From: a virus
Direction: 5' to 3' (one strand)
Virus record (IMG/VR): IMGVR_UViG_3300030117_006141
Span: 1-64,000 of that record
DNA length: 64,000 nucleotides
Made by a program: the position numbers and the translations under genes. The notes beneath the pieces are model-generated. The model was not told the origin of the DNA and did no database searches. It saw only the letters and a program-made list of their open reading frames with translations. Each line of letters begins with the position of its first letter. Within the stretch, counting starts at the first letter, position 1. Positions 7,087 to 62,549 of the stretch are shown here, in pieces.

Positions 7087-9522
7087 TTATAAACTTAATA
7101 AAGCACCAGTTATTTGATTAATTGGTGCAAAAGTCCCTGTTAATTTGTATGTTTTGCCGCCATAAATGAATACTAATCCTTCGGTTGGCACTACTGCTTT
7201 CCATCCACCTATAGCTTTAATTTTATTTAGGTTATCCTTAACCTTATTTATCTTCTTTAGATCGCCCGATCCTTTAACTGCCTTAACAGCTGTTGCAACT
7301 TTTTTACGCATTGCTTGAATTGCTTTATTTGGATTTGCGGCTAAAAATCCTTCTGTGTTCTTTAATATTTCTGCGCCTAGTTCAAAAAATAGTAACTCAA
7401 ATGGCAACATATTTTTCTTTACCTGCACAGCATGATTTTCTTTGTCTATTTTTTTAGCCCATTCTAATGTTTTTTCATCTTCTATAAATTTACCATTAAT
7501 TCTAAATGACTTATCAAAGAATGCCCATCTTTTAGTTAATCCGACCAATATATTATTGTTAACCTTTGAAGGCGCTTTTTTATTTATAAAATCTTCCCAC
7601 CATGATTGATGATAAACAGCAAACTCATCACTATCCTTTAGATCAAATTCTTTCATTAATTTATTTAATTTAGATACAAAGTAATTTCTTCGTTTTCCGA
7701 AATCTTGGCTTTTTATTGTTTTTAATGGATTTGGCCCAATAATCTTAAAAGTCTTCTGCAATTGTTGATTTACTTGTTTAATCATCCCCGCTAACATTCT
7801 ACCACTATCTCTTACTGTTCCAACCGGTCTTCCATCCTTATATTTTAATGCACCATGGAATTGTAGATATGGGGCATCATATACTATTACATTAACACTA
7901 TCTGGATACATAATTTCCATATTCATCCAATTATTTCCATTATCAAATATTTTTATTTGTTGCTTGTCTGATAGTTTTCCTATAGCTTTATCTAAATCCT
8001 TGAATGCTCCTACAAATGCTTTATATAATGGACCTCTTCCTTTAAATTTAGCTGCTATATCTCTACCCGACATTCCACCTCTTTTTATATCACCTGCATT
8101 TCTAGCTGCCTTTAGGGATCCATCCCATGTGATAAATAAATTTTGTCCATCGGTTTTTTCAGTAGCAGTTTGTTCTATACTTAAATTACCTTGAAGAGAT
8201 AATTCTATCATTTTTTTGAAATCACTAAACTTTAAGTCTTTATCATCGAAAGGGTGTGCCATGTGGCCATATGCTCCACCTTCGGTTATTAATTTCCTAG
8301 CTTCCCCTGCCAACCAAGTATTTATATTTTCTTTTATATCTTTACCCCTATCATCGATTGCAGGAACCATATCAACATCCTTTCCTTTCTCCATATCCTT
8401 CTGAGACTTTTTAGTAATCTTAGTAAGTTTTTTAATCATAGATGGAGTTGGTTCTTCTTTCTTTCTTAGTCTTTCACCTTTACTATCTTTCTTAACATCT
8501 TCAGCCCCCAGGAAATTAACAAATTCCCAACCAACCGTTTTTGCTACTTTAGTTATATGCTTTTTCCATTTATTATATGCCGCGGCCCCAACTCTTCCTT
8601 CACCTTTATAATCATCCCTTACTTCAGGCTGAGCAATTCCAGTTGGTGCATATGAGACAGGGCCCACAGGACCATTTGGATATTTAGTTCCATAGGTTTC
8701 AAATTTTTTCATATCGCCTACTATATAATCAACAACTTCCCAACCCAATCTTGCCGCACCTTCTTCTGAACGTTTCTTATATCCCTTGTGACTTGTTCTC
8801 CAATATCTCGGGCCATCATCTGTTGGGAGGCCTCCCGAAGTTGTATCTGTTCTAGACACCTCTGAAATTAATTGTTTGATATCTACAGCACAACAAAATC
8901 CTTCCATCACTTCATTTAATTTTTCAAGTTTATTAATTATAAGATTGTAATTTTTCGTATGACCAAATATACCTTTGAATATTTTTTTCTTATCCGCTTG
9001 ATCTGTATCCTTATCACCTAAAGCTTTACGAATAGCTGTTCCGCTCATTTCTCCTTGACCCGGGACATTTAATTTTACGTGAGGGGCTATAATTGTATAA
9101 GCTCCATCTCTATATCCTACCTCGGCTTTTCCTTTCCATGGTCTGAAAAATCTGCCACCCAATCTTTGTGCATCCTTTTTTCCGACTGCAAATATAACCG
9201 CAGTAGTTTTTGGATCATACTTTTTTAATATTTCTTCGGCTTTATATGGATTTTTTACCTGGGCTACTTTTTGGATTCCATGAGAATTAATTATTTTTTT
9301 CTTTTCATTAAAATTAAATGGAGATTTTGGTAAATCCACCTTATTACTTGTAGCTACCCAAACCTCACCAAATTTTTTAACTAATTGTTTATATACCTGA
9401 GCATGATGTTTGCCCATAGGCTGAAATCGTCCGGGGTATATAACTACAGTTTTAGTTATATTTGCCTGTTCTGCTATAATGTTATCGGCTAACCAATTGC
9501 CCAAGTTCATAGTATTCTCCAT
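7087..9522 (-). CDS. Fusion of an N-terminal HIGH-class (cytidylyl/adenylyl-transferase-like) nucleotidyltransferase and a C-terminal ATP-dependent ligase-like domain
   Basis: N-terminal motifs YPGRFQPMGKHH and MSGTAIR. C-terminal motifs EKTDG (I), NMEI, QFHG, EGLVF (IV) and YKLTG (V). The probable start is 9510, after GGAG. Confidence 0.7.
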   Translation of the reverse strand: MENTMNLGNWLADNIIAEQANITKTVVIYPGRFQPMGKHHAQVYKQLVKKFGEVWVATSNKVDLPKSPFNFNEKKKIINSHGIQKVAQVKNPYKAEEILKKYDPKTTAVIFAVGKKDAQRLGGRFFRPWKGKAEVGYRDGAYTIIAPHVKLNVPGQGEMSGTAIRKALGDKDTDQADKKKIFKGIFGHTKNYNLIINKLEKLNEVMEGFCCAVDIKQLISEVSRTDTTSGGLPTDDGPRYWRTSHKGYKKRSEEGAARLGWEVVDYIVGDMKKFETYGTKYPNGPVGPVSYAPTGIAQPEVRDDYKGEGRVGAAAYNKWKKHITKVAKTVGWEFVNFLGAEDVKKDSKGERLRKKEEPTPSMIKKLTKITKKSQKDMEKGKDVDMVPAIDDRGKDIKENINTWLAGEARKLITEGGAYGHMAHPFDDKDLKFSDFKKMIELSLQGNLSIEQTATEKTDGQNLFITWDGSLKAARNAGDIKRGGMSGRDIAAKFKGRGPLYKAFVGAFKDLDKAIGKLSDKQQIKIFDNGNNWMNMEIMYPDSVNVIVYDAPYLQFHGALKYKDGRPVGTVRDSGRMLAGMIKQVNQQLQKTFKIIGPNPLKTIKSQDFGKRRNYFVSKLNKLMKEFDLKDSDEFAVYHQSWWEDFINKKAPSKVNNNILVGLTKRWAFFDKSFRINGKFIEDEKTLEWAKKIDKENHAVQVKKNMLPFELLFFELGAEILKNTEGFLAANPNKAIQAMRKKVATAVKAVKGSGDLKKINKVKDNLNKIKAIGGWKAVVPTEGLVFIYGGKTYKLTGTFAPINQITGALLSL

Positions 9523-30183: not shown

Positions 30184-30277
30184 AATTTTTCCTCTTATTA
30201 TTCTACATATAAATATATACTTATAGTAAAAAGCTGTCCTTTATTATAATTATATGTTGCTCTAAATATTCTTTCAT

Positions 30278-51790: not shown

Positions 51791-51821
51791 AAATTTTTCA
51801 TAAAAGCAACCTTTTACGCAA

Positions 51822-52055
51822 TTATTTTTCAATTATTTTTGCCTCTTCAATAACCTCACAAATTAAGTATTGTTCTGTCATTGCCGTGCGCATTACATGA
51901 TTACCACCAATATGATCCCTCCAAGCCTGTAATATTTTCATTCTATTCTCGTGGGTGTCTGATACACCATATGGTCTAGGATCTAAATTGTGTTCTTTAA
52001 TCTTTCTCAAGATTCTATATGCTTTGCCGTTATTATAAAATATGTTTTCGTACAT
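51822..52055 (-). CDS. Hypothetical protein
   Basis: 77 aa ORF. Confidence 0.55.
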   Translation of the reverse strand: MYENIFYNNGKAYRILRKIKEHNLDPRPYGVSDTHENRMKILQAWRDHIGGNHVMRTAMTEQYLICEVIEEAKIIEK

Positions 52056-52088
52056 AACTAGGGTGGACTGGAATTACCTAAATATAAC

Positions 52089-52523
52089 CTACTTGATTGT
52101 TATAGTCTTTGGTTTGCTTTCTTCAGACACAGGCACCTGTATCATTAATAAACCATTTTGCATTGATGCATTGATTGTGGTAAGATCATACTTTGGACTT
52201 ACCTTCCATCCCATATCAAAACTTCTTCTAGCTATACCCTTATGGATATAATCATTAGCTTCTATATTTGAAGGGTTTGATTCAACTGATGGTTTTTTAT
52301 AAGCAACCTTCAAAGTATTGCCTTCAGTTGTAATACTGATATCGTCTTTCTCTAATCCAACGCAAGCGATATCAAAACATAATTCACCCATATCATTAGT
52401 ATAAATGTCTACAGGGTAATTAGGTTTCTGTTCCACAAATGATTGGAACATTGATTCATTGTCAAAAAAATTTCTGAATAATAGGTCCGTTGGTAAGAAC
52501 CTCTCTTGTAAGAATGTTGTCAT
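52089..52523 (-). CDS. Small heat-shock protein (Hsp20/IbpA-like)
   Basis: NYPVDIY, IACVGL.K.DI.I, YIHKGIARRSF and A.MQNGLL.I. Confidence 0.93.
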   Translation of the reverse strand: MTTFLQERFLPTDLLFRNFFDNESMFQSFVEQKPNYPVDIYTNDMGELCFDIACVGLEKDDISITTEGNTLKVAYKKPSVESNPSNIEANDYIHKGIARRSFDMGWKVSPKYDLTTINASMQNGLLMIQVPVSEESKPKTITIK

Positions 52524-52601
52524 AATTAAATCTCCTTAAATAATTTAATGTTAATATAAGGCGTCATCCAGTCCACCTTTATTATAATTATATGTTAACC
52601 T

Positions 52602-53198
52602 CTATTTTAGATCAAATATGTAAGTATGCAATTCTTCTCCTTCTCTCATAGTAGTTCTATACTCATAAGAAGTTACGCCTCTCACAGCTTCAATCATTTC
52701 TTTTGCTTTATCTAATATTGTTATCTCATTTGAAGACAAAGCTAATTTGTCATTTATAACAGTCATTTGGAGTGAACCTGTTTTAGAACCCGGGGTGTCA
52801 ACAAGATCATCGGGTAATAACGATTTGCCCTTCTCCAGTCTATCCGTATAATAATGTTTTAGTTTAATAGACAATGATTCCCACCATTTTGCAAATTCGG
52901 GTTTAGAGTTCTTAAACCATTCAGCTGCTTCATCGTCAGTCAATGCATCCCATACCTCATTAACGTCTGGTAGATTGTGTTCGAGGTGTTTGAACCAATT
53001 TATAATCCTATCATAAGCTTTCTTTTCACTAGATAACCCTGTTGTGTATATAGCATTATATGGTCTGGTAGGATCGAACGTCATCCGTTTATTTGGGTAA
53101 GACTTCTTTGGATTAATATACTCAACAAAAGTCCAATCCTTATATTTGAATTTGTTTAACATATTATCTTCCCATGTTCCGTTATTATCTGTTATCAT
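52602..53198 (-). CDS. Hypothetical protein flanked by 10-bp direct repeats
   Basis: 198 aa ORF with TTAACCTCTA at 52595-52604 and 53211-53220. Confidence 0.6.
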   Translation of the reverse strand: MITDNNGTWEDNMLNKFKYKDWTFVEYINPKKSYPNKRMTFDPTRPYNAIYTTGLSSEKKAYDRIINWFKHLEHNLPDVNEVWDALTDDEAAEWFKNSKPEFAKWWESLSIKLKHYYTDRLEKGKSLLPDDLVDTPGSKTGSLQMTVINDKLALSSNEITILDKAKEMIEAVRGVTSYEYRTTMREGEELHTYIFDLK

Positions 53199-53220
53199 AC
53201 GCAGTAAATTTTAACCTCTA

Positions 53221-53444
53221 GCCTCCGGGATTTTGACGACATGATCCCTGTTCGCCGTTGGGTCAGGGTGCCTATCAGGCAGCCATCGCCATTTCAACTT
53301 GTTCGCCAGTTGTTACGGTGACCTTCCTTATATCCTTATCATCCTGTCAAATCCGATCATCCCCATGTCGTAAATATCTTTTAGTGGAGATGGAGGGAAT
53401 CGAACCCTCGTCCAAGAATGTAGCTAATACAAGTACTAGCGGTC
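53221..53444 (-). ncRNA. ssrA: Circularly permuted (two-piece) tmRNA gene; tag (A)GEQVEMAMAA
   Basis: The acceptor piece (about 53444-53385) ends GAGGG-TTCGATT-CCCTC-CATCTCC-A. After a 20-nt spacer, the coding piece starts GGGGATG at 53364, giving a 7-bp acceptor stem with G3:U70. The tag ORF at 53307-53275 ends GCT GCC TGA TAG. The outer ends are approximate. Confidence 0.92.
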
Positions 53445-53456
53445 ATATATAAATAT

Positions 53457-53699
53457 CTACTTCTTCCTTAATAATTTAACTAGTTTGGCACATTTTTCAT
53501 ATTCCTCTGTTCCGGTAAAGTAATCTATTAAACTATTAATAGCCTCTTTACCCTCCGGATCGTCTAACATCCAATACGCTTCAGGTAGGCTGTCCCAGTC
53601 ATAACCTTTAATTATAAAGTCATATGTATTACGCATTGCTTCATCAGCCAATTCCTGATCAAGCTCATTATTCTCCATGTCTTTATAAAAGTCTTCCAT
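53457..53699 (-). CDS. Small acidic protein with C-terminal UVR (UvrB/C-like) motif
   Basis: YFTGTEEYEKCAKL. Confidence 0.65.
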   Translation of the reverse strand: MEDFYKDMENNELDQELADEAMRNTYDFIIKGYDWDSLPEAYWMLDDPEGKEAINSLIDYFTGTEEYEKCAKLVKLLRKK

Positions 53700-53712
53700 A
53701 TATTAATAAATA

Positions 53713-54117
53713 TTAAGTAAGTAGTTTATTTACACCATTATGTTTTTTATATATAGCATTAATTTTTTGTAAGCTAGATTTACTAAAAACCTCATGGCTT
53801 TTGTTTCCTAAGAAACTTTGCATAAGAAATAATATATCTGATAATTCCTTTCTATCATTTTTATATTCATCTATATCAAAATTATTATGCCCCTCGGCTA
53901 ATATAATATTTTTCTTTACTAATGATATAGCCTTTTTAGTCTTATCAATATATTCATTCGTACTTAAATCGGGTGAGGCAAATGAATCCAGGATCCCATT
54001 TACAGAATCACTGAATCCACTACCCGTATTTATATTAGATAAAGCATCTGCTTTATCCTGTGCCTCTAACATCTTATCAGCGAGCCTAGTTAACTTTTTT
54101 CTTTTTTGCTCTTCCAT
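53713..54117 (-). CDS. Hypothetical protein
   Basis: 134 aa, with C-terminal KSSLQKINAIYKK motif. Confidence 0.55.
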   Translation of the reverse strand: MEEQKRKKLTRLADKMLEAQDKADALSNINTGSGFSDSVNGILDSFASPDLSTNEYIDKTKKAISLVKKNIILAEGHNNFDIDEYKNDRKELSDILFLMQSFLGNKSHEVFSKSSLQKINAIYKKHNGVNKLLT

Positions 54118-54301
54118 TGTATCTCTTCTTATAAGGCTTATTACTTCTTTTAGGTAACTGCTCTTTAATAAGCTTAGTGATTAATGTTTTATCTAATAAG
54201 TCTGCTTGTAGCATTCCCATCTTCTTACGGACATAAACTGCTACTGCTATTGCTCCTGCAATAAATCCAATTATAAATAATAAAATATAATTTAGTATCA
54301 T
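54086..54301 (-). CDS. Small N-terminal TM protein
   Basis: ILLFIIGFIAGAIAVAVYV. Confidence 0.55.
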   Translation of the reverse strand: MILNYILLFIIGFIAGAIAVAVYVRKKMGMLQADLLDKTLITKLIKEQLPKRSNKPYKKRYNGRAKKKKVN

Positions 54302-54320
54302 ATCATTCTAACTCCTTTCT

Positions 54321-54671
54321 TTAAAAATTAAACGTTCCTCCAGTAGGCATCTCAGATCTTTTATCTTCGATGATTCCCATTCTCTTGGCTTTAGCATAAA
54401 CATCTTTGAGTGCATGACATGCCTCCATAATTTTATTAGCCTCTGTCCAAGTTACTTCATGCTTCTTACCATCTATTAATATATAACCCATAGTTGGTTG
54501 TGTAGCATCTCCCATAGGAGTTTGGTTTCCATATCTTAATTTGTATCCAATGGAACTCCATAGTTTACCATACCTCCCAGGATTGAATGGTTTCTTTTGA
54601 TTGTGTTTAATTGGTAGTCTACTTCCTGGTCCTCTACCTTCTCTTCTGATTCGATTATTATATCTCTTCAT
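54321..54671 (-). CDS. Basic hypothetical protein
   Basis: 116 aa, downstream of a host-type promoter. Confidence 0.55.
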   Translation of the reverse strand: MKRYNNRIRREGRGPGSRLPIKHNQKKPFNPGRYGKLWSSIGYKLRYGNQTPMGDATQPTMGYILIDGKKHEVTWTEANKIMEACHALKDVYAKAKRMGIIEDKRSEMPTGGTFNF

Positions 54672-54753
54672 CTTATTTTAGCATTAAGGGGGCAAGCCGG
54701 TCTTAGTTAATAATATATTTTAATATAAAAAATTTTTTTGAATTATCCAAATT

Positions 54754-55068
54754 TTATTTGACTTTTCTTGATATACTATCTAAGTCAAACATCTTGGAAT
54801 TTCTTTTGATTGTGTGCTGGGCGTGACAACATACGGATGCATTTCGCCATGCCTCAAATACGGAATTAAATTTATTGGGGAACCCCTCATCTGAATCCGT
54901 TATGATATTTTTTCCATTCTCCGTTATGAAGAATCTTCCGTCCGGTGTTCCTTGTGTTGCAGCATTTGGGAATTTTCTTAATACTGCTTTCTTGTACAAT
55001 TCGAATTGCGCTCTTTTGTCTATTTCATTAGAACGTCTTCCTAAAAACCTTAAATTTCTTTTTTTCAT
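54754..55068 (-). CDS. Hypothetical protein
   Basis: 104 aa ORF. Confidence 0.55.
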   Translation of the reverse strand: MKKRNLRFLGRRSNEIDKRAQFELYKKAVLRKFPNAATQGTPDGRFFITENGKNIITDSDEGFPNKFNSVFEAWRNASVCCHAQHTIKRNSKMFDLDSISRKVK

Positions 55069-55083
55069 ATTTATTTATTTTGT

Positions 55084-55119
55084 GGTATTACCCCCCACCA
55101 ATAGATGGGGGGCTTTACC
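55084..55119. terminator. Strong GC hairpin (terminator or processing/stability element)
   Basis: CCCCCCA (55091-55097) pairs with TGGGGGG (55106-55112), with outer GGTA/TACC. There is no U-tract on the coding strand. Confidence 0.5.
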
Positions 55120-55132
55120 TATTTAATATTCA

Positions 55133-55357
55133 TTACTTCTTCGTGAAGAATGAAGCTAGTATAACTAGTACGACTAGTCCGATGAATCCACCATTACCTA
55201 AAGTAGTTAACAGTGAAGTCATATTACCGACTACGTCCATTCCTAGAACACTAGTCCCAGTCAATACGTACCATAAAATTGCTAGCGGTATTAATCCCAT
55301 AAAGATTGTTCCCAATCCTGAGAAGAAACCATTTACCATTTTAAATACTGAATCCAT
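55133..55357 (-). CDS. Small two-TM membrane protein
   Basis: Start re-called at MDSVFK (55357) after AAGGAG. Confidence 0.65.
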   Translation of the reverse strand: MDSVFKMVNGFFSGLGTIFMGLIPLAILWYVLTGTSVLGMDVVGNMTSLLTTLGNGGFIGLVVLVILASFFTKK

Positions 55358-55419
55358 AATAATTCTCCTTTTGTTTTTCAAATTAATAATTAATGAAGAG
55401 CATTAAATTATTTATTTAA

Positions 55420-55830
55420 TTAAAACTTAAAACCAAACCCTAATGTAAGGTTTGTAGTTTTAGTTCCCGTGTTATAAACGACTTTTGGATCTACGTAAAT
55501 GTTACTTCTTAAAGTAAATAATTTACCAGCTCCGAATGACATACCATCCGTAGATAGTCCGTCAGTTTCTAAATAAGCAAAATATCCTTTCACAAAATAT
55601 CTTGCGTGGAAATCTACATCCATATCCACTGTCGAATCCGCTTGGCTTACTGAAGCACCTACCATAAGGTTTTCCATTACACCGTAGCCGATTGTTGGAG
55701 ATACTGACCACTCAGTCCAAGCTGTATTAGCTACATCACCTGTTCCCACGTACCAGTCTCCTGCTGTTTGTGCTTGTGCACCGATTAACGTCGCAATTGT
55801 TAATGCGAATGTTAAAATTAAGTTTCTCAT
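55420..55830 (-). CDS. Outer-membrane beta-barrel protein (small, about 8 strands)
   Basis: Signal peptide AQA|Q, alternating amphipathic strands, and C-terminal LGFGFKF BAM signal. Confidence 0.8.
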   Translation of the reverse strand: MRNLILTFALTIATLIGAQAQTAGDWYVGTGDVANTAWTEWSVSPTIGYGVMENLMVGASVSQADSTVDMDVDFHARYFVKGYFAYLETDGLSTDGMSFGAGKLFTLRSNIYVDPKVVYNTGTKTTNLTLGFGFKF

Positions 55831-56025
55831 ATTTGTTCTCCTAATTTCTTTTTACTTGTTTTGTCGCTCTTCATTTTTAATGTCAATACCATACTTTCTT
55901 ATAAACTAACCTGATTAATAAAACATTGATTATTCCCTACACACTGGTTGATACACCGAATAAATTGTGTGTTTCGGTTTTAGAATTTATGATATATATT
56001 TTTCATCTATTATACATATATAGAC

Positions 56026-56265
56026 TTATTTTTTAATATTCGTTTTGTTATTATCTTTTATAAATTTTTCTATCATTTCTGATACACGTAACCATAATTT
56101 GTCATCCCGTTTACTATTCAAAACCTCATTACATACTTCAGATGCCAAGCTATCATCGGACACATATGCGTCAGCTGTAAAGATATTTTTTATACTATCT
56201 ATACCATGTGTCTGATATTTCTCTATCATTGTATCAGTCATTACCCACCTTTTATGAAAGCCCAT
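56026..56265 (-). CDS. Hypothetical protein
   Basis: 79 aa ORF. Confidence 0.55.
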   Translation of the reverse strand: MGFHKRWVMTDTMIEKYQTHGIDSIKNIFTADAYVSDDSLASEVCNEVLNSKRDDKLWLRVSEMIEKFIKDNNKTNIKK

Positions 56266-56512
56266 AATACTTCTCCTTCATTTGTTTAAGCTTACCACAT
56301 TTCTCATACTCTTCGGTCTTTATGAAATACTCCATTAGATTATTCAATTCCTTTCTTACCTTATATGGGCCACCCTTAATGATATCCACTTTACCATTCT
56401 GATCATATTCCTCAACCAGGATATCATATAGTTGATTATTGATTTCATATACCGCTTCGTCTATTGAGTTCAGCAGATCCTCGTGTGTTATATTTTTACC
56501 GTTTATATTCAT
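56252..56512 (-). CDS. Small protein with C-terminal UVR motif (paralogue of 53457..53699)
   Basis: YFIKTEEYEKCGKL. Confidence 0.65.
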   Translation of the reverse strand: MNINGKNITHEDLLNSIDEAVYEINNQLYDILVEEYDQNGKVDIIKGGPYKVRKELNNLMEYFIKTEEYEKCGKLKQMKEKYYGLS

Positions 56513-56762
56513 ATCCTTCCTTCTTCATAAAAGTTAATATCTTCTTACCAATATACGAATCGATATCCACCATATTCTGATCTTCATTATCATTGAATAT
56601 CACTCTATCTACATTCCCATCTTCATCGCGATAGTCTGTAACTAGGTATTTAACATCTACACCATCTGCGTCCTCTAATAGGATACGATAATCAGTATTA
56701 TAGTGGGCTTCTGATGAAGTCCATTTATCTGTTAATGTAAATTTTGCTTTTCTTGTAATCAT
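56496..56762 (-). CDS. Hypothetical protein
   Basis: 88 aa ORF. Confidence 0.55.
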   Translation of the reverse strand: MITRKAKFTLTDKWTSSEAHYNTDYRILLEDADGVDVKYLVTDYRDEDGNVDRVIFNDNEDQNMVDIDSYIGKKILTFMKKEGYEYKR

Positions 56763-56766
56763 ATTA

Positions 56767-58839
56767 TTATTTTTTTAGAAATAGTTTATTAAGTGTTTTG
56801 GCTAATTGAATTAACGCATTAACATCAATCGTCTCTGCATCTCTCCCATACATCATTTGGAAGTTTCGAGATCCATAATCTCCTCTTGAAGATATAAAGT
56901 AACTTAATACTTTAATACCCATCTTTTTAATATCGTTAACCCTTTTTCTTGTATGCTCTGCAGCAGGCTCTCCACCATAGTAGAATCCTTTTGGATTAGC
57001 ATAAGGCTCTCCATCACTAAAGTTAATAAAGTAACTATCCATGTTAGCAGAACTCTGAACCATTATATCTTTAATGGCCTCAAAACATAAACCTTCAGGT
57101 GTTAATCCACCAGGAGATAAATGCTTAAATAATCTTTGGATCTTATTAACATTGTCTGTTCTAGAATCATAGGCCATAAGAACCAATGGAACTTGATTCT
57201 GAGTAGTTCTGTAAGATATCTGAACATGAATGTTATCGATCATAGAAGCAGCCTTAGCAATAGCTACAGCAGCGATCTGTGTCTTTTCCCATTTAGTTCC
57301 ACCCATCGATCCACTAGCATCAATACTAAGGTGAATGTTGGCTGGATTATATTTATCACACATTGTCTGTGTAAAGATTCTCTCTGCGCCAAATCCTAAA
57401 CTAGCAATTAATCTCTTATCAATCTTACCAGACTCTAATCTTGTAAACTTAGTGTTTCTTTCTTCACTTCTAACTTTAAGCTTCTTACCAAGCATACGAC
57501 CCAATCTAAGACCGGCATTAATATTACCTTGCATATCTTCTCTTTCATATGTTCGAGATACTATATTACTAATAGTTCCTGAATCGATTACTCTCTGACT
57601 AAAGTTCTTAATAACGATAACATCAGTAGAGCTACCCTTAGAGTGATAGTAGCTTTCATAGTCTTTACCAACTTCTTTAATCTCTGATCCAGATTCTTCT
57701 AACGATTGTAATTTTTTATAATCAGCCTTAGTAATTTTTTTCTTTCTAATATCACCATCTAAGAAATCTTCTTGTTTCTTTATAGCTCTTTTTACTTTAG
57801 ATTTTTGTGCATCAGACAATTCAGGTAAATCATCTGTAGGTGTACACCCGCCTCTTTGGCCTCCACTACTCTTCTTAGCTTCACCTCCCTCAGCTTTGGA
57901 TCCATCATCATTAGATTGACCTTCTGGAGTTTTAGCTTCTTTAGTTCCATTTGGATTAGAACAACTAGCACCTTCTCCCTGACAATCTTTTTCCTCTTCA
58001 CCTTCTCCCTGACAATCTGTATCTTCAGTTGTAGGTGTAGGTAAGTTTCTTTCTACTATTCTAAATATATCAAATGCAACCTCTAATGCTTCATCAGAAT
58101 TCTTTAATCTACTAATACATCTTAAATTAATAGTATTCCAGATATTCATAAATCCAGGTAATGCATTTAGATCACGATTCTCATTTGTGATATTACATAT
58201 TCTAAACATATAAGAATCCCAAGTAAGCTCTCTATACTCTTTAGAAGCTAGAGCTTTATCAATCGACTTATCATTAAAGTATTTATTATATAATGCATGA
58301 TAGTATCCTTTATAACCAGGAGCCGATGTAAATATAAAATTATCAATACGTCTATCTTCTATAATATTTAATAACTGTCTAACTTTACTTACAATATAAT
58401 TCTCAACCATCCATTTAGCATCGCTATCATCCTTATCTGAAAAGTATTTATCTTTAATCATTTCCTTAATAGAATTTGGAATAACCATATCCGAGCTTTG
58501 TATCAAATCTCTTAATGTATTAAAGTTAGTTAACTTAATATGAGAACCCTCATGTAAAGCTAAACCAACAGCAGAATCAAATTCCTTCTCATTTAGATTA
58601 GCAGATATAACTACTCTCTCACCATCAGTATAAGAATCACCACGTTGATCAAATGTAACAGGTATATCTTTACCCGTAACTAAATTTACGAAATTAGCAA
58701 TAGCTCTTCTATAACTAGCTAATCTAATTAAGTGAGCAGTATTATCTTTTGATACTTCTCCAGTTAATACATCGATATCATCATTTAGAAAGTTATCGCT
58801 TAACCAGAAACTTGAATTGTTGTAATTTGTGTTTAACAT
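56767..58839 (-). CDS. CobT-like protein: HExxH metallopeptidase-like N-terminus, acidic linker and vWA domain
   Basis: LHEGSH, NIIEDRRI, SGKIDKR, MIDAS DASGSMG, TPE and FSDGEP. Confidence 0.88.
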   Translation of the reverse strand: MLNTNYNNSSFWLSDNFLNDDIDVLTGEVSKDNTAHLIRLASYRRAIANFVNLVTGKDIPVTFDQRGDSYTDGERVVISANLNEKEFDSAVGLALHEGSHIKLTNFNTLRDLIQSSDMVIPNSIKEMIKDKYFSDKDDSDAKWMVENYIVSKVRQLLNIIEDRRIDNFIFTSAPGYKGYYHALYNKYFNDKSIDKALASKEYRELTWDSYMFRICNITNENRDLNALPGFMNIWNTINLRCISRLKNSDEALEVAFDIFRIVERNLPTPTTEDTDCQGEGEEEKDCQGEGASCSNPNGTKEAKTPEGQSNDDGSKAEGGEAKKSSGGQRGGCTPTDDLPELSDAQKSKVKRAIKKQEDFLDGDIRKKKITKADYKKLQSLEESGSEIKEVGKDYESYYHSKGSSTDVIVIKNFSQRVIDSGTISNIVSRTYEREDMQGNINAGLRLGRMLGKKLKVRSEERNTKFTRLESGKIDKRLIASLGFGAERIFTQTMCDKYNPANIHLSIDASGSMGGTKWEKTQIAAVAIAKAASMIDNIHVQISYRTTQNQVPLVLMAYDSRTDNVNKIQRLFKHLSPGGLTPEGLCFEAIKDIMVQSSANMDSYFINFSDGEPYANPKGFYYGGEPAAEHTRKRVNDIKKMGIKVLSYFISSRGDYGSRNFQMMYGRDAETIDVNALIQLAKTLNKLFLKK

Positions 58840-58873
58840 ATCTTATTTATTTATATAATAAATATACGAACTA

Positions 58874-58996
58874 TTATTGACTTTTCCTACCGATTCCATA
58901 AAAAGTTATGAACAATACTACGATAAATACTACTACCTTTAGTACTATTCTTAATTCGTTTACCTGTAGGCCTGGATCTCCGTTTAATTCAAACAT
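58874..58996 (-). CDS. 40-aa single-TM micro-protein (not in ORF track)
   Basis: MFELNGDPGLQVNELRIVLKVVVFIVVLFITFYGIGRKSQ, directly downstream of the promoter at 59018-59049. Confidence 0.55.
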   Translation of the reverse strand: MFELNGDPGLQVNELRIVLKVVVFIVVLFITFYGIGRKSQ

Positions 58997-59017
58997 ATTT
59001 ATTAATTATTTATAATA

Positions 59018-59049
59018 TAAATATACGTAAAATATTTCACTTTTCCAAA
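59018..59049 (-). promoter_or_regulatory. Host-type (Bacteroidota -33/-7) promoter TTTGG-N17-CGTATATTTA (representative of 10 sites)
   Basis: The same 17-nt spacing is found at 26515-26546, 49746-49777, 51779-51810, 54720-54751, 58859-58890, 60317-60348, 62020-62051, 62233-62264 and 62349-62380. Confidence 0.8.
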
Positions 59050-59127
59050 TATTTTCGCAGGTTTTTTCGGGTGGCGAGGCGAAAGTTATGAACCGCGCGG
59101 AGCGCGCCGTAAGCCCCGACGTATATA

Positions 59128-59325
59128 TTATTTATCATTATGATAATATCCTTCGGGTTCGTTCTCCATTCTTATAAATTCTCCGAGGGATACCATTACT
59201 TGAACATACTCATTAGGTTCATACATATCCTTAAATTTATTATTGGTAGTATGGTATTCAGTGATGTTATTATTAATAAGATCCTCCTTGAGAACCCATA
59301 TAACTACTTGTTTAATATTCGCCAT
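59128..59325 (-). CDS. Hypothetical protein
   Basis: 65 aa ORF. Confidence 0.5.
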   Translation of the reverse strand: MANIKQVVIWVLKEDLINNNITEYHTTNNKFKDMYEPNEYVQVMVSLGEFIRMENEPEGYYHNDK

Positions 59326-59579
59326 ATCTTATTTAATTCTTTCATTTGGTATTTTAATAAACTGGAACTACTTGATGAGAACAAGACCTCTCTACATTCA
59401 TGGAATAAATCTGGTATAGTATCTACATCATATTCGGCACTACTCATTTTATCAGGATTATCTATTATATACGACCATATACGTAATAACTTCATATATT
59501 GATTAGAGTTATTATATATAGGAGTACCTACAGACATAGGAGGTTTAATAGTATGATCTTGTTTAATATACTTACTCAT
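59304..59579 (-). CDS. Hypothetical protein
   Basis: 91 aa, with C-terminal KYQMKELNKIWR motif. Confidence 0.55.
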   Translation of the reverse strand: MSKYIKQDHTIKPPMSVGTPIYNNSNQYMKLLRIWSYIIDNPDKMSSAEYDVDTIPDLFHECREVLFSSSSSSLLKYQMKELNKIWRILNK

Positions 59580-59790
59580 CTTTATTATCTTTACTACCTG
59601 TAATATTATTAAGAGCCTTCTCGAATAGGTCTCTAGTCTCCATATGGGGATGTTCGTCCCTTAGCCTATTAGTCTCTTTATCAAATTGCTTATTGACGCC
59701 AAGGCGATTCACTTCCTCCATAATGTGTATTAATTTATCTTCCCAATGTCCCATTAATAGTTTCCTTCTCCGTAGGTATATACTTCCCAC
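59572..59790 (-). CDS. Hypothetical protein (true start probably MGHWEDK)
   Basis: Co-oriented ORF overlapping the next start codon. Confidence 0.5.
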   Translation of the reverse strand: MGSIYLRRRKLLMGHWEDKLIHIMEEVNRLGVNKQFDKETNRLRDEHPHMETRDLFEKALNNITGSKDNKDE

Positions 59791-59837
59791 ATACGCAAGA
59801 CGACATACTACCTACTATTATTAATATCGTTATTATT

Positions 59838-60029
59838 CTAATCATTATCTTTTATTTTATTCCAAACCCTTTCATGTATATAATACATTAAAGCACCTGT
59901 TACATTCATTATAAGAGCGTTCCATAAAGGACTGGATGTTAGCAAAGCTGCTAGGATCAAATAACTATTTATTATAGCTATTATTCTCCAACTTACCGTC
60001 TTAGAGAAACTCCTCTTTCTACTATCCAC
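59838..60029 (-). CDS. DUF2061-like small membrane protein
   Basis: SRKRSFSKTVSWRI...YYIHERVW. Confidence 0.8.
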   Translation of the reverse strand: MDSRKRSFSKTVSWRIIAIINSYLILAALLTSSPLWNALIMNVTGALMYYIHERVWNKIKDND

Positions 60030-60310
60030 TATTTGTATTGTTTATACATTCTATTCATTGCAATTAAGTCTTCCTTAGCTACCCTATGATGTACTCCGTA
60101 TCTCTTTATATCCCTTAATACACGCTTAACGAAACCACAAGGTCCATTCCTTTCCCTTAATAGAGAATATAACATTGTGATCTTTTCATATAGAGGATGG
60201 AATTCATGTGTTATATCCCTAGCTACAGTATCTCCATAATCTCCTGGTCCACTAGTGTAGGTGTAGTATCTTCCTACCCTTCCTAGTTCTAAATCGCTCT
60301 TTGTTTCCAT
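60029..60310 (-). CDS. Hypothetical protein
   Basis: 93 aa, with C-terminal KEDLIAMNRMYK motif and a host-type promoter upstream. Confidence 0.55.
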   Translation of the reverse strand: METKSDLELGRVGRYYTYTSGPGDYGDTVARDITHEFHPLYEKITMLYSLLRERNGPCGFVKRVLRDIKRYGVHHRVAKEDLIAMNRMYKQYK

Positions 60311-60630
60311 AGTTGATTAATATACAAAATTTATTTTAATTATCCAACACTATTGTTGTTTTTCTTATACTCACACATACTATGTGTAATGTGTGTATGA
60401 AACCCATTTGGCAAAAAAATAGGTTCGCGATATGAATCGGTCAGTGCCTCAAAAAATTTATAAAAACTTTTGGGATGACCCGATAACCTCCCCCACGCGC
60501 GAGCTAGGAACTGAAGTAACCCCTACCCGGGTGAAGTAAATTAACTGTTCATAACTTTTCATATCTTTTTTTATTTATGAATACTTACGAACCACCCTAT
60601 TGTTCATTACTATAATAATGAAGTAGGAAA

Positions 60631-60675
60631 GGTGAAGTACTATACTGTCTATCTCTATATCGTATGTACTCCACC
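60631..60675 (-). terminator. Probable intrinsic terminator after the AAA+ gene
   Basis: On the minus strand, GGUGGAGUAC/GUACUUCACC forms a 10-bp stem (the G-U pair works only on this strand), followed by UUUCCU. Confidence 0.65.
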
Positions 60676-60692
60676 TCTAGAGTGTTAATCAC

Positions 60693-61844
60693 CTACTCCG
60701 CGTCCTCCATATCTTCGGTATTAAATAGATCCTCATTAGATCCATCGTCACAGTACTTCTGAACTAATTGCTTAACAAACGTTCTCTCACTATCTACTCC
60801 TCCGTCGTTACTATATTGAGGGTATATAGTTATCTCTGCTGCCTCTCCTAATGTAAAGCCATCATATAGTAGTCCTGCTATCTCTACGGCAGTTCTAGTA
60901 GATACCCCAGACTCTATACGTCCAGTCTCATTAGCTGCCTCTATACGTGTGTTAGTACATATCTCAGCTACATTATCTAATACCTTACTATCTACCCTTG
61001 GATATAATGATTGTAATAGATCAGACTCTTCGTCCTTACCTAGTAGGTCTACCTCTATAATAGTAAATCTATCTACTAAGGCTTTATCCATTACTCTAGT
61101 ACTAGTATATTCGTTACCTATATTAGCAGTCGCTATAAAGGTTACTCCGTCAGCTACTTTAATAGTTTCCTGACCTTCAGATTCATCTAGTCTAAGATAT
61201 CTCTGTCCATAGTCTAATACAGTCATTAGGATATTCCAAGCATCAGGATGTGCCCTTGATAACTCGTCCATTAGGATTACAGCGTTAGGTGTCTGGATCG
61301 CCTTAACGAATAAAGACTCGCTAAAGTGTGTGCCCTTCTCCTTGTCGAATTGAACATTACCGATTAGGGTAGCACGAGGATCTTGAGTAGCTCCTAGATT
61401 GAAATAGAAGTCAGGTCGATCCAGACCATTAACTAATGCCTTTGCAGCTAGTGTTTTACCACATCCTGCCGGTCCTACCATCATAATATTCTTACCTCTT
61501 ACGGCACTTCTTATAAGGTATTTCCACTTTAACTCAGGCATTTTTAGTGTATTAGGCTTTAGGTCATAAGACGTATTAATGAAATTCATTACCTCTAATT
61601 GCTCTTGAGGCACTTTTTCCGTCTTAGCTGACTCACGATTATGAGCTTTTACAGCCTTATTATACACTGACATTGGTACTTGTTTCCATGTAGTACCTGT
61701 AAATTCGATGGCATTTCCATTATCAGCCACCTTAGATTTCATTTGCGAATACAGTTTTCCTGGTAAACTAGATACAAAATTACCTGTTGCATCCTTTACT
61801 TGATACTTACCATCTACTCTTTCGACTTTAAATACATTTAACAT
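60693..61844 (-). CDS. MoxR-family (CobS/CbbQ/NirQ-like) AAA+ ATPase
   Basis: GPAGCGKT, ILMDELSR, FIATAN and ALVDRF. Confidence 0.92.
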   Translation of the reverse strand: MLNVFKVERVDGKYQVKDATGNFVSSLPGKLYSQMKSKVADNGNAIEFTGTTWKQVPMSVYNKAVKAHNRESAKTEKVPQEQLEVMNFINTSYDLKPNTLKMPELKWKYLIRSAVRGKNIMMVGPAGCGKTLAAKALVNGLDRPDFYFNLGATQDPRATLIGNVQFDKEKGTHFSESLFVKAIQTPNAVILMDELSRAHPDAWNILMTVLDYGQRYLRLDESEGQETIKVADGVTFIATANIGNEYTSTRVMDKALVDRFTIIEVDLLGKDEESDLLQSLYPRVDSKVLDNVAEICTNTRIEAANETGRIESGVSTRTAVEIAGLLYDGFTLGEAAEITIYPQYSNDGGVDSERTFVKQLVQKYCDDGSNEDLFNTEDMEDAE

Positions 61845-61873
61845 ACACTCTATTTTTTAATTTAACACTCTTT

Positions 61874-62012
61874 AATAAGAACAGGACCGGGCGCAATTGA
61901 GATTTTATGCTAGATTAAATTTCTCCTTTTAGCTGTTAGACTCGTCGTCGTGAGCTCCTTTGGCGCATTATTGAGATTTTGCTATTGAATCCTCCCGGAT
62001 CCCTTTCTTATT
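61874..62012 (-). ncRNA. Candidate structured RNA/leader with a closing stem and two internal direct repeats
   Basis: Closing stem AAUAAGAA..GGA.CCGGG / CCCGG-UCC..UUCUUAUU. Repeats at 61890-61912 and 61962-61984. Begins just downstream of the promoter at 62020-62051. Confidence 0.6.
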
Positions 62013-62068
62013 TATATTATAAATATACGAACTTTTTCGCACATATACAACCTTTTTCTCAGTTATTT

Positions 62069-62206
62069 TTATAAAGTTATGAACAATCCGAATATAATAA
62101 CCACTACTCCGAGGGTCATATATAGCCTATTCATCTCTTTTTTTCCCTGGTTTAGGTCATCTTCTGTGACTAATGGTGGGAATGGGTTTCTATAGTTTGT
62201 AATCAT
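62069..62206 (-). CDS. 45-aa C-terminal TM micro-protein (not in ORF track)
   Basis: MITNYRNPFPPLVTEDDLNQGKKEMNRLYMTLGVVVIIFGLFITL, with its own promoter at 62233-62264. Confidence 0.55.
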   Translation of the reverse strand: MITNYRNPFPPLVTEDDLNQGKKEMNRLYMTLGVVVIIFGLFITL

Positions 62207-62549
62207 AACTTTAAATCTTTATATCTTATATATAAAGATACGTAAAATTTTCCAATTATCCAAATTTTTTGACAGGTTTTTTCAGATTTTTTTGTAATTG
62301 TTCATAACTTTTTATTATTATTATAGGAATAGTCCTCCCAATATAATATAAATATACGAAAAATAAACGTAATTTCCAAATTTTTTTGCATAAATCGGCC
62401 TGCGATCTACCCTATCTTAGACAGTCTAGGACAGGCAATAACACGGGTTGGGTGAATAAGTATACGTCTGGAAGGAGATCTCGCAGTATATCGCCTCTAA
62501 ATAGCCTTAAATTGAATGGATTATAGGACAGGAAGTCCCACCATAAAAA

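What the first reader, a model, noticed from the sequence alone, without database searches (positions are those of the whole stretch)
52062..61871. Several transcripts are each clamped by their own 5'UTR-3'UTR inverted repeat
Seen: perfect inverted repeats of unrelated sequence sit in the short intergenic flanks of single genes. For hsp20 they are GGTGGACTGGA (52062-52072) / TCCAGTCCACC (52567-52577), extendable inward via GCCU/AGGU and UAAC/GUUA, with the 5' arm at the predicted transcript start. For the OMP gene they are AATGAAGAGC (55392-55401) / GCTCTTCATT (55866-55875). For the AAA+ gene they are AGAGTGTTAA (60679-60688) / TTAACACTCT (61862-61871). For the tmRNA coding piece they are ACGACATG (53236-53243) / CATGTCGT (53364-53371). 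A weaker G-U-containing pair flanks 54754..55068 (54688-54695 vs 55088-55095). Pairing is shared but sequence is not, which argues for RNA structure rather than a recombinase site. Inference: the mRNAs are end-paired as in pre-rRNA processing stems, for RNase III excision, end protection, translation recycling, or even circularisation. A ligase-like protein is encoded at 7087..8280.
Basis: partly seen in the sequence, partly recalled or inferred. Interest (0 to 1): 0.82.

Follow-up and report, generated by a model that had tools for sequence, protein, structure and literature searches.

The report
RNA clamps around two phage genes
In this uncultured marine phage, the sequences just before and just after the small heat-shock gene, and likewise an outer-membrane-protein gene, can pair as RNA; dozens of related phages keep this pairing through matched mutations, so these two clamps are real and selected, while the other three claimed clamps are not supported.

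Summary
The window is the first 64 kb of a 79.6-kb viral contig (about 43% complete, 33% G+C). All four perfect inverted repeats sit where stated. Within this genome alone they do not exceed chance: 3 genes have flank complementarity of 10 nt or more, against 1.8 expected.

Related contigs change the verdict for two genes.
- **hsp20:** 67 of 85 distinct related loci have a perfect 10-18 nt match between the leader and the trailer. There are at least 9 unrelated arm sequences, with compensatory changes within clades. The 5' arm follows a promoter-like motif. The 3' arm follows the stop codon and precedes a terminator or T-run in several clades. It stays at the unit's edge when a second gene lies inside. 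A local leader hairpin rich in G.U pairs competes with the clamp.
- **Outer-membrane-protein gene:** it shows the same pattern, more weakly.
- **Not supported:** the AAA+ pair is not conserved. The tmRNA pair and the weak fifth pair belong to local, covarying structures.

The best reading is a selected long-range mRNA helix, closest to the B. subtilis hbs 5'/3'-UTR interaction. Its function (protection, RNase III processing or a switch) is untested. No ligase support was found. Earlier notes of this scan report the same hsp20 and OMP clamps on other phage DNA.

The parts
52567..52577 (-). hsp20 clamp, 5' arm (RNA GGUGGACUGGA), 44-54 nt upstream of the start codon
   Evidence: Exact complement of 52062-52072. 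Homologous position holds a different, complementary arm in related loci.
52062..52072 (-). hsp20 clamp, 3' arm (RNA UCCAGUCCACC), 17-27 nt after the stop codon and 6 nt before the next gene's ATG
   Evidence: Present in MFE and centroid folds of the 523-nt transcript model.
52089..52523 (-). hsp20 coding sequence (144 aa) enclosed by the clamp
   Evidence: Pfam HSP20 E=8e-13, PHROG 432 E=1e-18.
52550..52562 (-). inner 5' extension of the hsp20 helix (GCCU 52559-52562, UAAC 52550-52553)
   Evidence: RNAduplex, dG -35 kcal/mol for the flanks.
52076..52088 (-). inner 3' extension of the hsp20 helix (AGGU 52076-52079, GUUA 52085-52088)
52552..52584 (-). local leader hairpin that overlaps the 5' arm (alternative fold, -8.2 kcal/mol)
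   Evidence: Equivalent hairpins occur in nearly all related leaders. Clade B consensus has 7 pairs with many G.U and 2 pairs changed on both sides.
52576..52596 (-). promoter-like 21-nt motif (AACATATAATTATAATAAAGG) ending at the first bases of the 5' arm; repeated at 30238-30258 upstream of another gene
   Evidence: Promoter function is inferred, not shown.
55866..55875 (-). OMP-gene clamp, 5' arm (RNA AAUGAAGAGC), 36-45 nt upstream of the start codon
55392..55401 (-). OMP-gene clamp, 3' arm (RNA GCUCUUCAUU), 19-28 nt after the stop codon, upstream of the small membrane-protein gene
55420..55830 (-). 136-aa secreted protein with signal peptide and C-terminal ...GFGFKF (predicted outer-membrane beta-barrel; no Pfam or PHROG hit)
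   Evidence: The OMP label rests on sequence features only.
60679..60688 (-). claimed AAA+ 3' arm: real repeat, not supported as a conserved clamp
61862..61871 (-). claimed AAA+ 5' arm: lies 18-27 nt before the ATG inside a long structured leader, not near the predicted transcript start
53227..53248 (-). tmRNA hairpin whose loop contains the claimed 3' arm (CAUGUCGU); the stem covaries in relatives and the loop can pair with ACGGC of the preceding hairpin loop
55091..55112 (-). local hairpin CCCCCC/GGGGGG after the small membrane-protein gene; contains the claimed 5' arm of the weak fifth pair
   Evidence: Stem changes to CCCCTCG/CGAGGGG in the nearest relative.

Best explanation
Two units in the window are each closed by a selected long-range RNA helix: hsp20 (52062-52577) and the predicted outer-membrane-protein gene (55392-55875). 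The helix forms between the start of the 5' leader and the stretch just after the stop codon of the same message. Shown here: the complementarity is kept in many related phages while the arm sequences differ, and it tracks the edges of the transcription unit. Inferred: for hsp20 the nascent leader first folds into a small local hairpin that presents the arm. Once the 3' arm is transcribed, it displaces that hairpin and ties the 5' end to the 3' UTR. The most likely purpose is to control the life of the message, by hiding the 5' end and the 3' region from nucleases as in the B. subtilis hbs mRNA, or by offering a double-stranded site for processing. The AAA+, tmRNA and fifth pairs are chance matches or parts of other local structures.
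For: hsp20:
- In 42 viral-contig relatives, 38 have 10-18 nt of perfect leader/trailer complementarity with different arms per clade.
- With metagenome relatives, 61 of 85 distinct loci reach 10 nt or more within 60 nt of the stop. Six more have the 3' arm 220-250 nt downstream, after a second small gene. At least 9 arm classes exist.
- Cognate matches are 11-16 nt, against a cross-class mean of 7.1.
- Cognate duplex energy is -32.3 kcal/mol, against -13.5 and -18.0 in controls (p about 1e-7 to 1e-9).
- Within clade A, 93% of cells are paired, 4 pairs change on both sides, and the covariation score is 0.131 against 0.067 (0 of 500 shuffles reach it).
- A 44%-identical relative in a 425-kb contig has TATAAT, then a 14-nt arm, the gene, the complementary arm, then a canonical terminator.
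- A local leader hairpin overlaps the arm in nearly all relatives, with U.G at one pair in 13 of 13 sequences.
- No inversion of the enclosed segment relative to its neighbours was seen.

OMP gene:
- 11 of 54 loci reach 10 nt or more, against 1.8 expected.
- Arms differ by lineage.
- Cognate energy is -18.0 against -14.6 and -13.9 in controls (p about 3e-4).

Window transcripts: both fold with the clamp in the MFE and centroid structures, with z-scores of -4.1 and -6.8.
Against: - No transcript data exist, so start, end and pairing are all inferred.
- Within this genome alone the flank pairs are no more frequent than chance.
- The clamp helices are almost purely Watson-Crick. G.U exceeds A.C only 5 to 1 in 40 distinct hsp20 arm pairs and about 2 to 2 in the OMP set, so strand-specific wobble evidence for the clamp itself is weak.
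- In the window the hsp20 3' arm is followed by the next gene rather than a terminator, and the OMP 3' arm lies inside a two-gene unit. A pure end-protection role therefore does not fit every case.
- The OMP clamp is clear in only about half of the relatives, and its energy in the window (-17 kcal/mol) is unremarkable.
Confidence: 0.62

Rival explanations
1. The helix is an RNase III processing stalk. The gene is cut out of a longer transcript the way 16S and 23S rRNA are, leaving a message with paired ends.
For: The helix flanks the whole coding unit. Total paired length with extensions is about 19-23 bp. The helix is near-perfect Watson-Crick. The OMP clamp encloses only the first gene of a two-gene unit. 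RNase III is documented to cut long-range intramolecular mRNA duplexes in B. subtilis (PMC11780869).
Against: No cleavage data exist. The window's perfect helices are only 10-11 bp. For hsp20 the 5' arm sits next to a promoter-like motif, so the unit may already be its own transcript. No RNase III gene was found in this 43%-complete contig, though host enzyme could act.
Confidence: 0.2
2. It is a hok-like fold-back switch. The 5'/3' pairing and the competing leader hairpin are two states that time or gate translation of the enclosed gene, or of the next gene whose start lies 6 nt beyond the hsp20 3' arm.
For: A mutually exclusive local hairpin is conserved in hsp20 leaders. The 3' arm lies 2-7 nt after the stop in most hsp20 relatives, so terminating ribosomes would open it. 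The window's 3' arm abuts the downstream ATG.
Against: The Shine-Dalgarno sequence and start codon of hsp20 lie outside the helix. The window's OMP leader has no local hairpin. Abutment of the next ATG is specific to the window's clade.
Confidence: 0.1
3. The feature acts at the DNA level. The arms mark the ends of a mobile or recombining gene cassette, or the remains of a hairpin into which the gene was inserted, and are kept alike by copying between the arms.
For: The hsp20 unit occurs in at least three different gene neighbourhoods. The OMP pair also occurs behind different upstream genes. The arms are almost free of G.U pairs.
Against: Arm sequences are unrelated between lineages, unlike transposase-recognised ends. 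No inverted orientation of the unit was seen. The arms are single-copy, not duplicated hairpins or PeSL-type direct repeats. The overlapping leader hairpin carries sense-strand-only G.U pairs. No mechanism is known that would keep 11-18 bp arms complementary across 450-700 bp.
Confidence: 0.06
4. All five pairs are chance matches in an A+T-rich genome.
For: The frequency of flank pairs in this genome equals expectation. This reading fits the AAA+, tmRNA and fifth pairs.
Against: The hsp20 and OMP pairs recur at the same positions with different sequences in dozens of relatives.
Confidence: 0.02

Closest known systems
B. subtilis hbs mRNA 5'/3'-UTR long-range interaction (Braun, Durand and Condon 2017, PMC5737220)
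   Same: A fully complementary 14-nt stretch in the 5' UTR pairs with a stretch just upstream of the terminator in the 3' UTR of a short monocistronic message of about 550 nt. The paper showed by compensatory mutations that this modulates nuclease cleavage and stability. hsp20 relatives L007 and L203 have exactly this layout.
   Different: Here the system is a phage one, the evidence is natural covariation only, the 5' arm sits at the predicted transcript start, a competing leader hairpin exists, and in the window no terminator follows the 3' arm. The nucleases involved are unknown.
Leader-trailer processing stalks of rRNA operons and long-range RNase III targets in mRNAs (PMC6582327 abstract; PMC11780869)
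   Same: A helix formed by sequences on either side of the functional RNA loops out the whole unit. Duplexes spanning more than 100 nt are documented RNase III substrates.
   Different: The enclosed RNA is a protein-coding message. The perfect helix is shorter (10-18 bp). No cleavage has been shown.
hok mRNA fold-back (fbi/tac) of plasmid R1 hok/sok (from my own knowledge, not read here)
   Same: The 5' end pairs with the 3' end of the message, and a metastable 5' hairpin forms first during transcription.
   Different: In hok the fold controls access to the translation start and is released by 3' trimming. Here the ribosome-binding site lies outside the helix, and no antisense RNA partner was looked for.
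S. aureus icaR 5'/3'-UTR pairing (PMC3868564; only title and start of abstract seen)
   Same: Intramolecular pairing between the two UTRs of a bacterial mRNA.
   Different: As I recall, the icaR 3' UTR pairs with the Shine-Dalgarno region. The phage arms do not.
PeSL promoter-terminator cassettes of T4-like phages (PMC4122927, PMC2839356)
   Same: Short regulatory sequences flank accessory genes that move between phage genomes.
   Different: PeSLs are repeated composite motifs (stem-loop plus early promoter) that act by DNA recombination. The arms here are single-copy, inverted and lineage-specific.

Membership tests
hbs-type 5'/3'-UTR long-range interaction | Complementary segments in the 5' and 3' untranslated regions of one message | tested here: met
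   for hsp20 and OMP. That both arms lie on one transcript is inferred.
hbs-type 5'/3'-UTR long-range interaction | [quoted passage not shown] | tested here: inconclusive
   Met in relatives L005/L007 and L203. A T-run follows in clades A and B. Not met in the window, where the next gene follows.
hbs-type 5'/3'-UTR long-range interaction | Pairing confirmed by compensatory changes | tested here: met
   Natural compensatory changes only. No engineered mutants.
hbs-type 5'/3'-UTR long-range interaction | Pairing alters nuclease cleavage and half-life | not testable with these tools
   Needs experiments.
RNase III processing stalk | Helix formed by sequences flanking the released RNA | tested here: met
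RNase III processing stalk | Regular duplex of about two helical turns (about 20 bp) | tested here: inconclusive
   Window hsp20 has 11 bp plus two 4-bp extensions across internal loops. Relatives have 14-18 bp perfect plus 4-5 bp. Window OMP has 10 bp.
RNase III processing stalk | Staggered cleavage by RNase III | not testable with these tools
   No RNA data.
hok-type fold-back switch | Metastable 5' hairpin competing with 5'/3' pairing | tested here: met
   Met for hsp20. Not met for the window's OMP leader.
hok-type fold-back switch | Fold hides the translation start signals | tested here: not met
   The Shine-Dalgarno sequence AAGGAG and the ATG lie 25 nt or more downstream of the paired region.
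Mobile DNA cassette with terminal inverted repeats, or invertible segment | End sequences conserved among copies | tested here: not met
   At least 9 unrelated hsp20 arm classes.
Mobile DNA cassette with terminal inverted repeats, or invertible segment | Segment found in both orientations | tested here: not met
   hsp20 and OMP are always co-oriented with their neighbours.
PeSL cassette | Repeated stem-loop plus early-promoter motif on both sides of the gene | tested here: not met
   Each arm occurs once. Neither flank contains both halves.
Intrinsic terminator with a split stem | Stem followed directly by a U-tract | tested here: inconclusive
   T-runs follow the 3' arm in hsp20 clades A and B, but part of them pairs with an A-run of the 5' arm. 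None is present in the window.

The most novel reading that the evidence does not exclude
Phage accessory genes such as hsp20 and the OMP gene travel as self-contained message modules. A covarying end-to-end helix and a competing 5' hairpin form a two-state RNA device that sets when the message is cut out, translated or destroyed. This would be a widespread, uncatalogued class of phage cis-regulatory RNA, analogous to rRNA processing stalks or the hok fold-back but applied to ordinary protein genes.
Probability: 0.3. Interest if true: 0.8.

Novelty: new variant of a known kind. Interest (0 to 1): 0.62.

Why it matters
Conserved pairing between the two ends of a bacterial or phage message is documented experimentally in only a few single cases (hbs, icaR, hok). 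Here natural covariation across dozens to hundreds of uncultured phage genomes supports such a helix around two different genes. That gives a well-sampled family on which the rules of long-range mRNA folding, decay and processing can be tested. It also warns that a pair of 10-nt flank repeats in one A+T-rich genome is not evidence by itself: three of the five claimed cases did not survive comparison.

Tried and rejected
- **Sequencing runs:** no RNA holder was listed for 51800-56100, so transcript ends could not be examined and read laying was not used.
- **Empty-site search:** a search with the upstream neighbour protein (52602-53198) found no relatives, so an insertion-into-a-hairpin origin could not be tested.
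- **Third clamp:** relatives of the clamped gene just beyond the window (64985-65311) were not found.
- **Cultured phages:** hsp20 loci of Pelagibacter phage HTVC115P, P-SSM3 and S-PM2 show no clamp, only local terminators, so no cultured model was identified.
- **Rfam:** there is no match in 58800-62500 even at E up to 1. The only Rfam hit in the window is the permuted tmRNA.
- **RNase III:** no RNase III domain was found in the contig. The contig is 43% complete, so this says little.
- **Ligase:** the 'ligase-like' stretch 7087-8280 has no Pfam hit, the 811-aa ORF has only a weak cytidylyltransferase-like match, and there is no PDB ligase match.
- **Strand test:** counting G.U against A.C was inconclusive for the clamp helices.
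- **Alignment limits:** one alignment of OMP units (A3) aligned the flanks too poorly across lineages for a formal pair count. A covariance model of the whole unit is impossible within the 400-column limit.
- **Lost call:** one script call returned no answer and was repeated in smaller form.


Full report
**Context.** The window is bases 1-64000 of a 79,615-base IMG/VR virus record, estimated 43% complete, with 33.5% G+C and nearly all genes on the minus strand. The region of the finding encodes:
- an Hsp20 protein at 52089-52523 (Pfam HSP20 E=8e-13);
- a permuted tmRNA at 53184-53476;
- a 136-aa secreted protein with a beta-barrel-like C-terminus at 55420-55830 (no family hit);
- a vWA/CobT-like protein at 56767-58839;
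- a MoxR/CobS-like AAA+ ATPase at 60693-61844.

No cultured phage is close: the best hsp20 identity is below 36%.

**Observation.**
- The contig holds 377 perfect inverted repeats of 10 nt or more with 100-2500 nt spacing, against about 322 in dinucleotide-preserving shuffles.
- I paired the 60 nt before each start with the 60 nt after each stop for 101 called genes. Three genes reach 10 nt, against 1.76 expected from pairing flanks of different genes. One reaches 11 nt, against 0.51 expected. By my own arithmetic the Poisson probability of three or more is about 0.26.

**hsp20 in relatives.** Forty-two related hsp20 loci from viral contigs were fetched.
- Thirty-eight have 10-18 nt of perfect complementarity between the 80 nt upstream and the 60 nt downstream, and the arms differ by clade. 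Examples are GGTGGACTGGA (window and nearest relative), CAGTAGGTTGGGT, AATACAGGCAGGTT, AACGTACTAAGTGGGC and AAGGGGCAGTAC.
- Within clades there are compensatory pairs, such as GTGGGC/GCCCAC against GTAGGC/GCCTAC, and CAGGCAGG/CCTGCCTG against CAGACAGG/CCTGTCTG and CAGGTAGG/CCTACCTG.
- On a clade A alignment, 93% of cells pair, 4 of 16 pairs change on both sides, and the covariation score is 0.131 against 0.067 in shuffles (0 of 500 reach it). Sliding the partner by 1-3 columns drops pairing to 25-62%.
- One representative per arm class gives cognate matches of 11-16 nt, against a cross-class mean of 7.1.
- Adding 80 metagenome loci gives 85 distinct loci with full flanks. Of these, 61 have 10 nt or more, and further arm classes appear (AAAGTGTACTGAGTA, CTGCGGGCCAGT, GGATGGGTAT).
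- Six of the apparent failures carry the 3' arm 220-250 nt after the hsp20 stop, behind a second small gene. These six span four different arm classes. The helix therefore marks the edges of the unit whatever lies inside.
- A 44%-identical relative on a 425-kb contig has TATAAT, one base, a 14-nt arm, the gene, the complementary arm 13 nt after the stop, and then a textbook terminator hairpin with a run of nine T.

**Architecture.**
- In the relatives the 5' arm follows within a few to about 15 nt of an A+T-rich promoter-like motif. In clade A this is TGTATATTTATATATG, which resembles the motif that precedes many genes of this contig.
- In the window the arm begins at the last bases of a 21-nt motif, AACATATAATTATAATAAAGG, that recurs upstream of another gene at 30238-30258.
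- The 3' arm starts 2-7 nt after the stop in most relatives. It is followed by a T-run (clades A and B) or a canonical terminator (the clade of L005/L007, and L203).
- In the window's clade it is followed, 6 nt later, by the next gene's ATG.
- Nearly every leader also folds into a local hairpin whose stem uses the outer bases of the 5' arm and whose loop shows the arm's centre. In the window this is 52552-52584.
- In clade B the consensus hairpin has 7 pairs, one of them U.G in all 13 sequences, several others with G.U, and two pairs changed on both sides. Those wobbles exist only on the sense strand, so this part at least is RNA.

**OMP gene.** Seventy-four related loci were fetched.
- Among 54 distinct flank pairs, 11 have 10 nt or more against 1.8 expected, and 27 have 8 nt or more against 10 expected.
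- Arms differ by lineage at similar positions: AATGAAGAGC (window), AATTAGAGAGCTC, CGAAAGCATGTT, GAGAGCATT, ATGAGAGC, and several GCGCG-type arms.
- Cognate duplex energy averages -18.0 kcal/mol, against -14.6 (3' flank reversed) and -13.9 (other locus's flank), p about 3e-4.
- The signal is weaker and less universal than for hsp20. The window's own duplex energy is ordinary, although its 10-nt match is exceeded by only 1 of 132 cross-class pairs.
- In 44 of 70 loci the gene is followed by the small membrane-protein gene (55133-55381 in the window) on the same strand, so this clamp encloses only the first gene of a pair.

**The other three pairs.**
- *AAA+ gene.* Across 67 distinct relatives there is no excess complementarity: -18.5 against -17.7 and -17.0 kcal/mol, p 0.1-0.18. 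The longer matches are A-rich ribosome-binding sites against T-runs. In the window the 5' arm lies 18-27 nt before the ATG, inside a leader of about 190 nt. The two nearest lineages do show a 7-9 nt match between the bases abutting the ATG and a site about 10 nt after the stop (ACACACACT/AGTGTGTGT; in the window AGAGTGT/ACACTCT). This is a hint, not a finding.
- *tmRNA.* The 5' arm lies in the segment between the two pieces that is removed on maturation. The pairing survives, with one U.G, only in L003, L015 and L018, and is lost in L005, L007, L008 and L012. The 3' arm is the loop of a hairpin whose stem covaries (GGGAU/AUCCC, GGAGGU/ACCUC, GGGAC/GUCCC, AGAGC/GCUCU), and it can pair with ACGGC in the loop of the preceding hairpin in all of them.
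- *Fifth pair.* Its 5' arm is half of a local CCCCCC/GGGGGG hairpin that becomes CCCCTCG/CGAGGGG in the nearest relative, while the supposed partner stays unchanged.

**RNA or DNA.**
- *For RNA:* the arms track promoter-like and terminator signals and the unit's edges. Their sequences are lineage-specific while pairing is kept. The unit is never seen inverted relative to its neighbours. Each arm is single-copy, unlike PeSL repeats. The competing hairpin carries sense-strand wobbles.
- *Weak point:* the clamp helices themselves are 97-98% Watson-Crick. G.U outnumbers A.C only 5 to 1 for hsp20 and 2 to 2 for OMP.
- *The DNA-level idea:* the hsp20 unit sits in at least three gene neighbourhoods, which keeps a cassette idea alive at low odds.

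**Mechanism.** What is shown is selection for pairing. Everything beyond that is inference.
- I favour a protective or processing clamp. A leader hairpin guards the 5' end of the nascent RNA. When the 3' arm emerges it pairs with the exposed loop and displaces the hairpin, so the 5' end is tied to the 3' UTR next to the terminator where one exists. This is the layout shown to slow nuclease cleavage in the hbs mRNA.
- A stalk for RNase III, which is known to cut long-range mRNA duplexes, fits the OMP case better, because there the 3' arm is internal to a two-gene unit.
- A hok-like translational switch is less likely, because the ribosome-binding site is outside the helix.
- Circularisation has no support.

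**Novelty.** I found no paper describing such a helix around phage hsp20 or OMP genes in four full-text searches. Long-range UTR pairing itself is known, so I class this as a new variant of a known kind. Earlier notes of this scan report the same hsp20 clamp, the competing hairpin and an OMP clamp on other phage genomes. I reached the comparative result before reading them, and I tested the hairpin and OMP claims on my own data.

Noticed in passing
same contig beyond the window, G000 64952-65357 (locus L199): A third gene (64985-65311, 108 aa) is flanked by a 16-bp helix with one G.U (ACATAAGTAGCCGTGCT / AGCACGGTTACTTATG), duplex -30 kcal/mol, the strongest outlier in the contig together with hsp20. 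Its 3' arm ends in the next gene's ATG. No relatives were found to test it.
   Followed up: partly
window 61845-62068 (minus strand): A leader of about 190 nt ahead of the AAA+ gene is closed by GGAUCCGGG/CCCGGUCC and holds two copies of AAAATCTCAAT...GCGCC. It has no Rfam match even at E up to 1.
   Followed up: partly
window 60311-60692 and 58997-59127 (minus strand): Two gene-free stretches (382 and 131 nt) contain G+C-rich, hairpin-prone segments in a 33% G+C genome. They have no Rfam match and may be uncatalogued RNAs.
   Followed up: no
window about 60560, 62300, 59080; contig 68063, 69454; loci L046-L048: The 13-mer TGTTCATAACTTT recurs in both orientations in intergenic regions, often about 25 nt upstream of the early-type promoter motif (TTTGGATAA ... 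CGTATATTTATA).
   Followed up: no
window 53184-53275 (minus strand): Downstream of the tmRNA tag reading frame, beyond the Rfam model, two hairpins with covarying stems have loops that can pair (ACGGC with GUCGU) in all eight phage tmRNAs compared, probably forming a pseudoknot.
   Followed up: partly
window 55069-55095; OMP relatives L126-L168: A small palindromic hairpin (GGYAATNNTRCC) followed by ACAAAA recurs at the head of leaders, directly after the OMP 3' arm in many relatives and before gene 54754-55068 in the window.
   Followed up: no
L004-L006, L208, L213, L247, L263, L267; window 59838-60029: A small DUF2061-type membrane-protein gene of about 69 aa lies inside the hsp20 clamp in several lineages. 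In this contig its homologue sits elsewhere (59838-60029, Pfam DUF2061 E=5e-7).
   Followed up: partly
L203 (JBBACR010000001.1, 425-kb contig labelled Candidatus Pacearchaeota MAG): The only hit in the species-genome collection is an hsp20 relative with a complete promoter-arm-gene-arm-terminator unit. The contig may be a large phage binned with an archaeon.
   Followed up: no
L200-L202 (HTVC115P, P-SSM3, S-PM2): hsp20 genes of three cultured marine phages share the motif ACTCGCTTA(A/T) 6-12 nt upstream of the ribosome-binding site and lack the clamp.
   Followed up: no
Its only family match is a weak N-terminal cytidylyltransferase-like hit (E=7e-4).
   Followed up: partly
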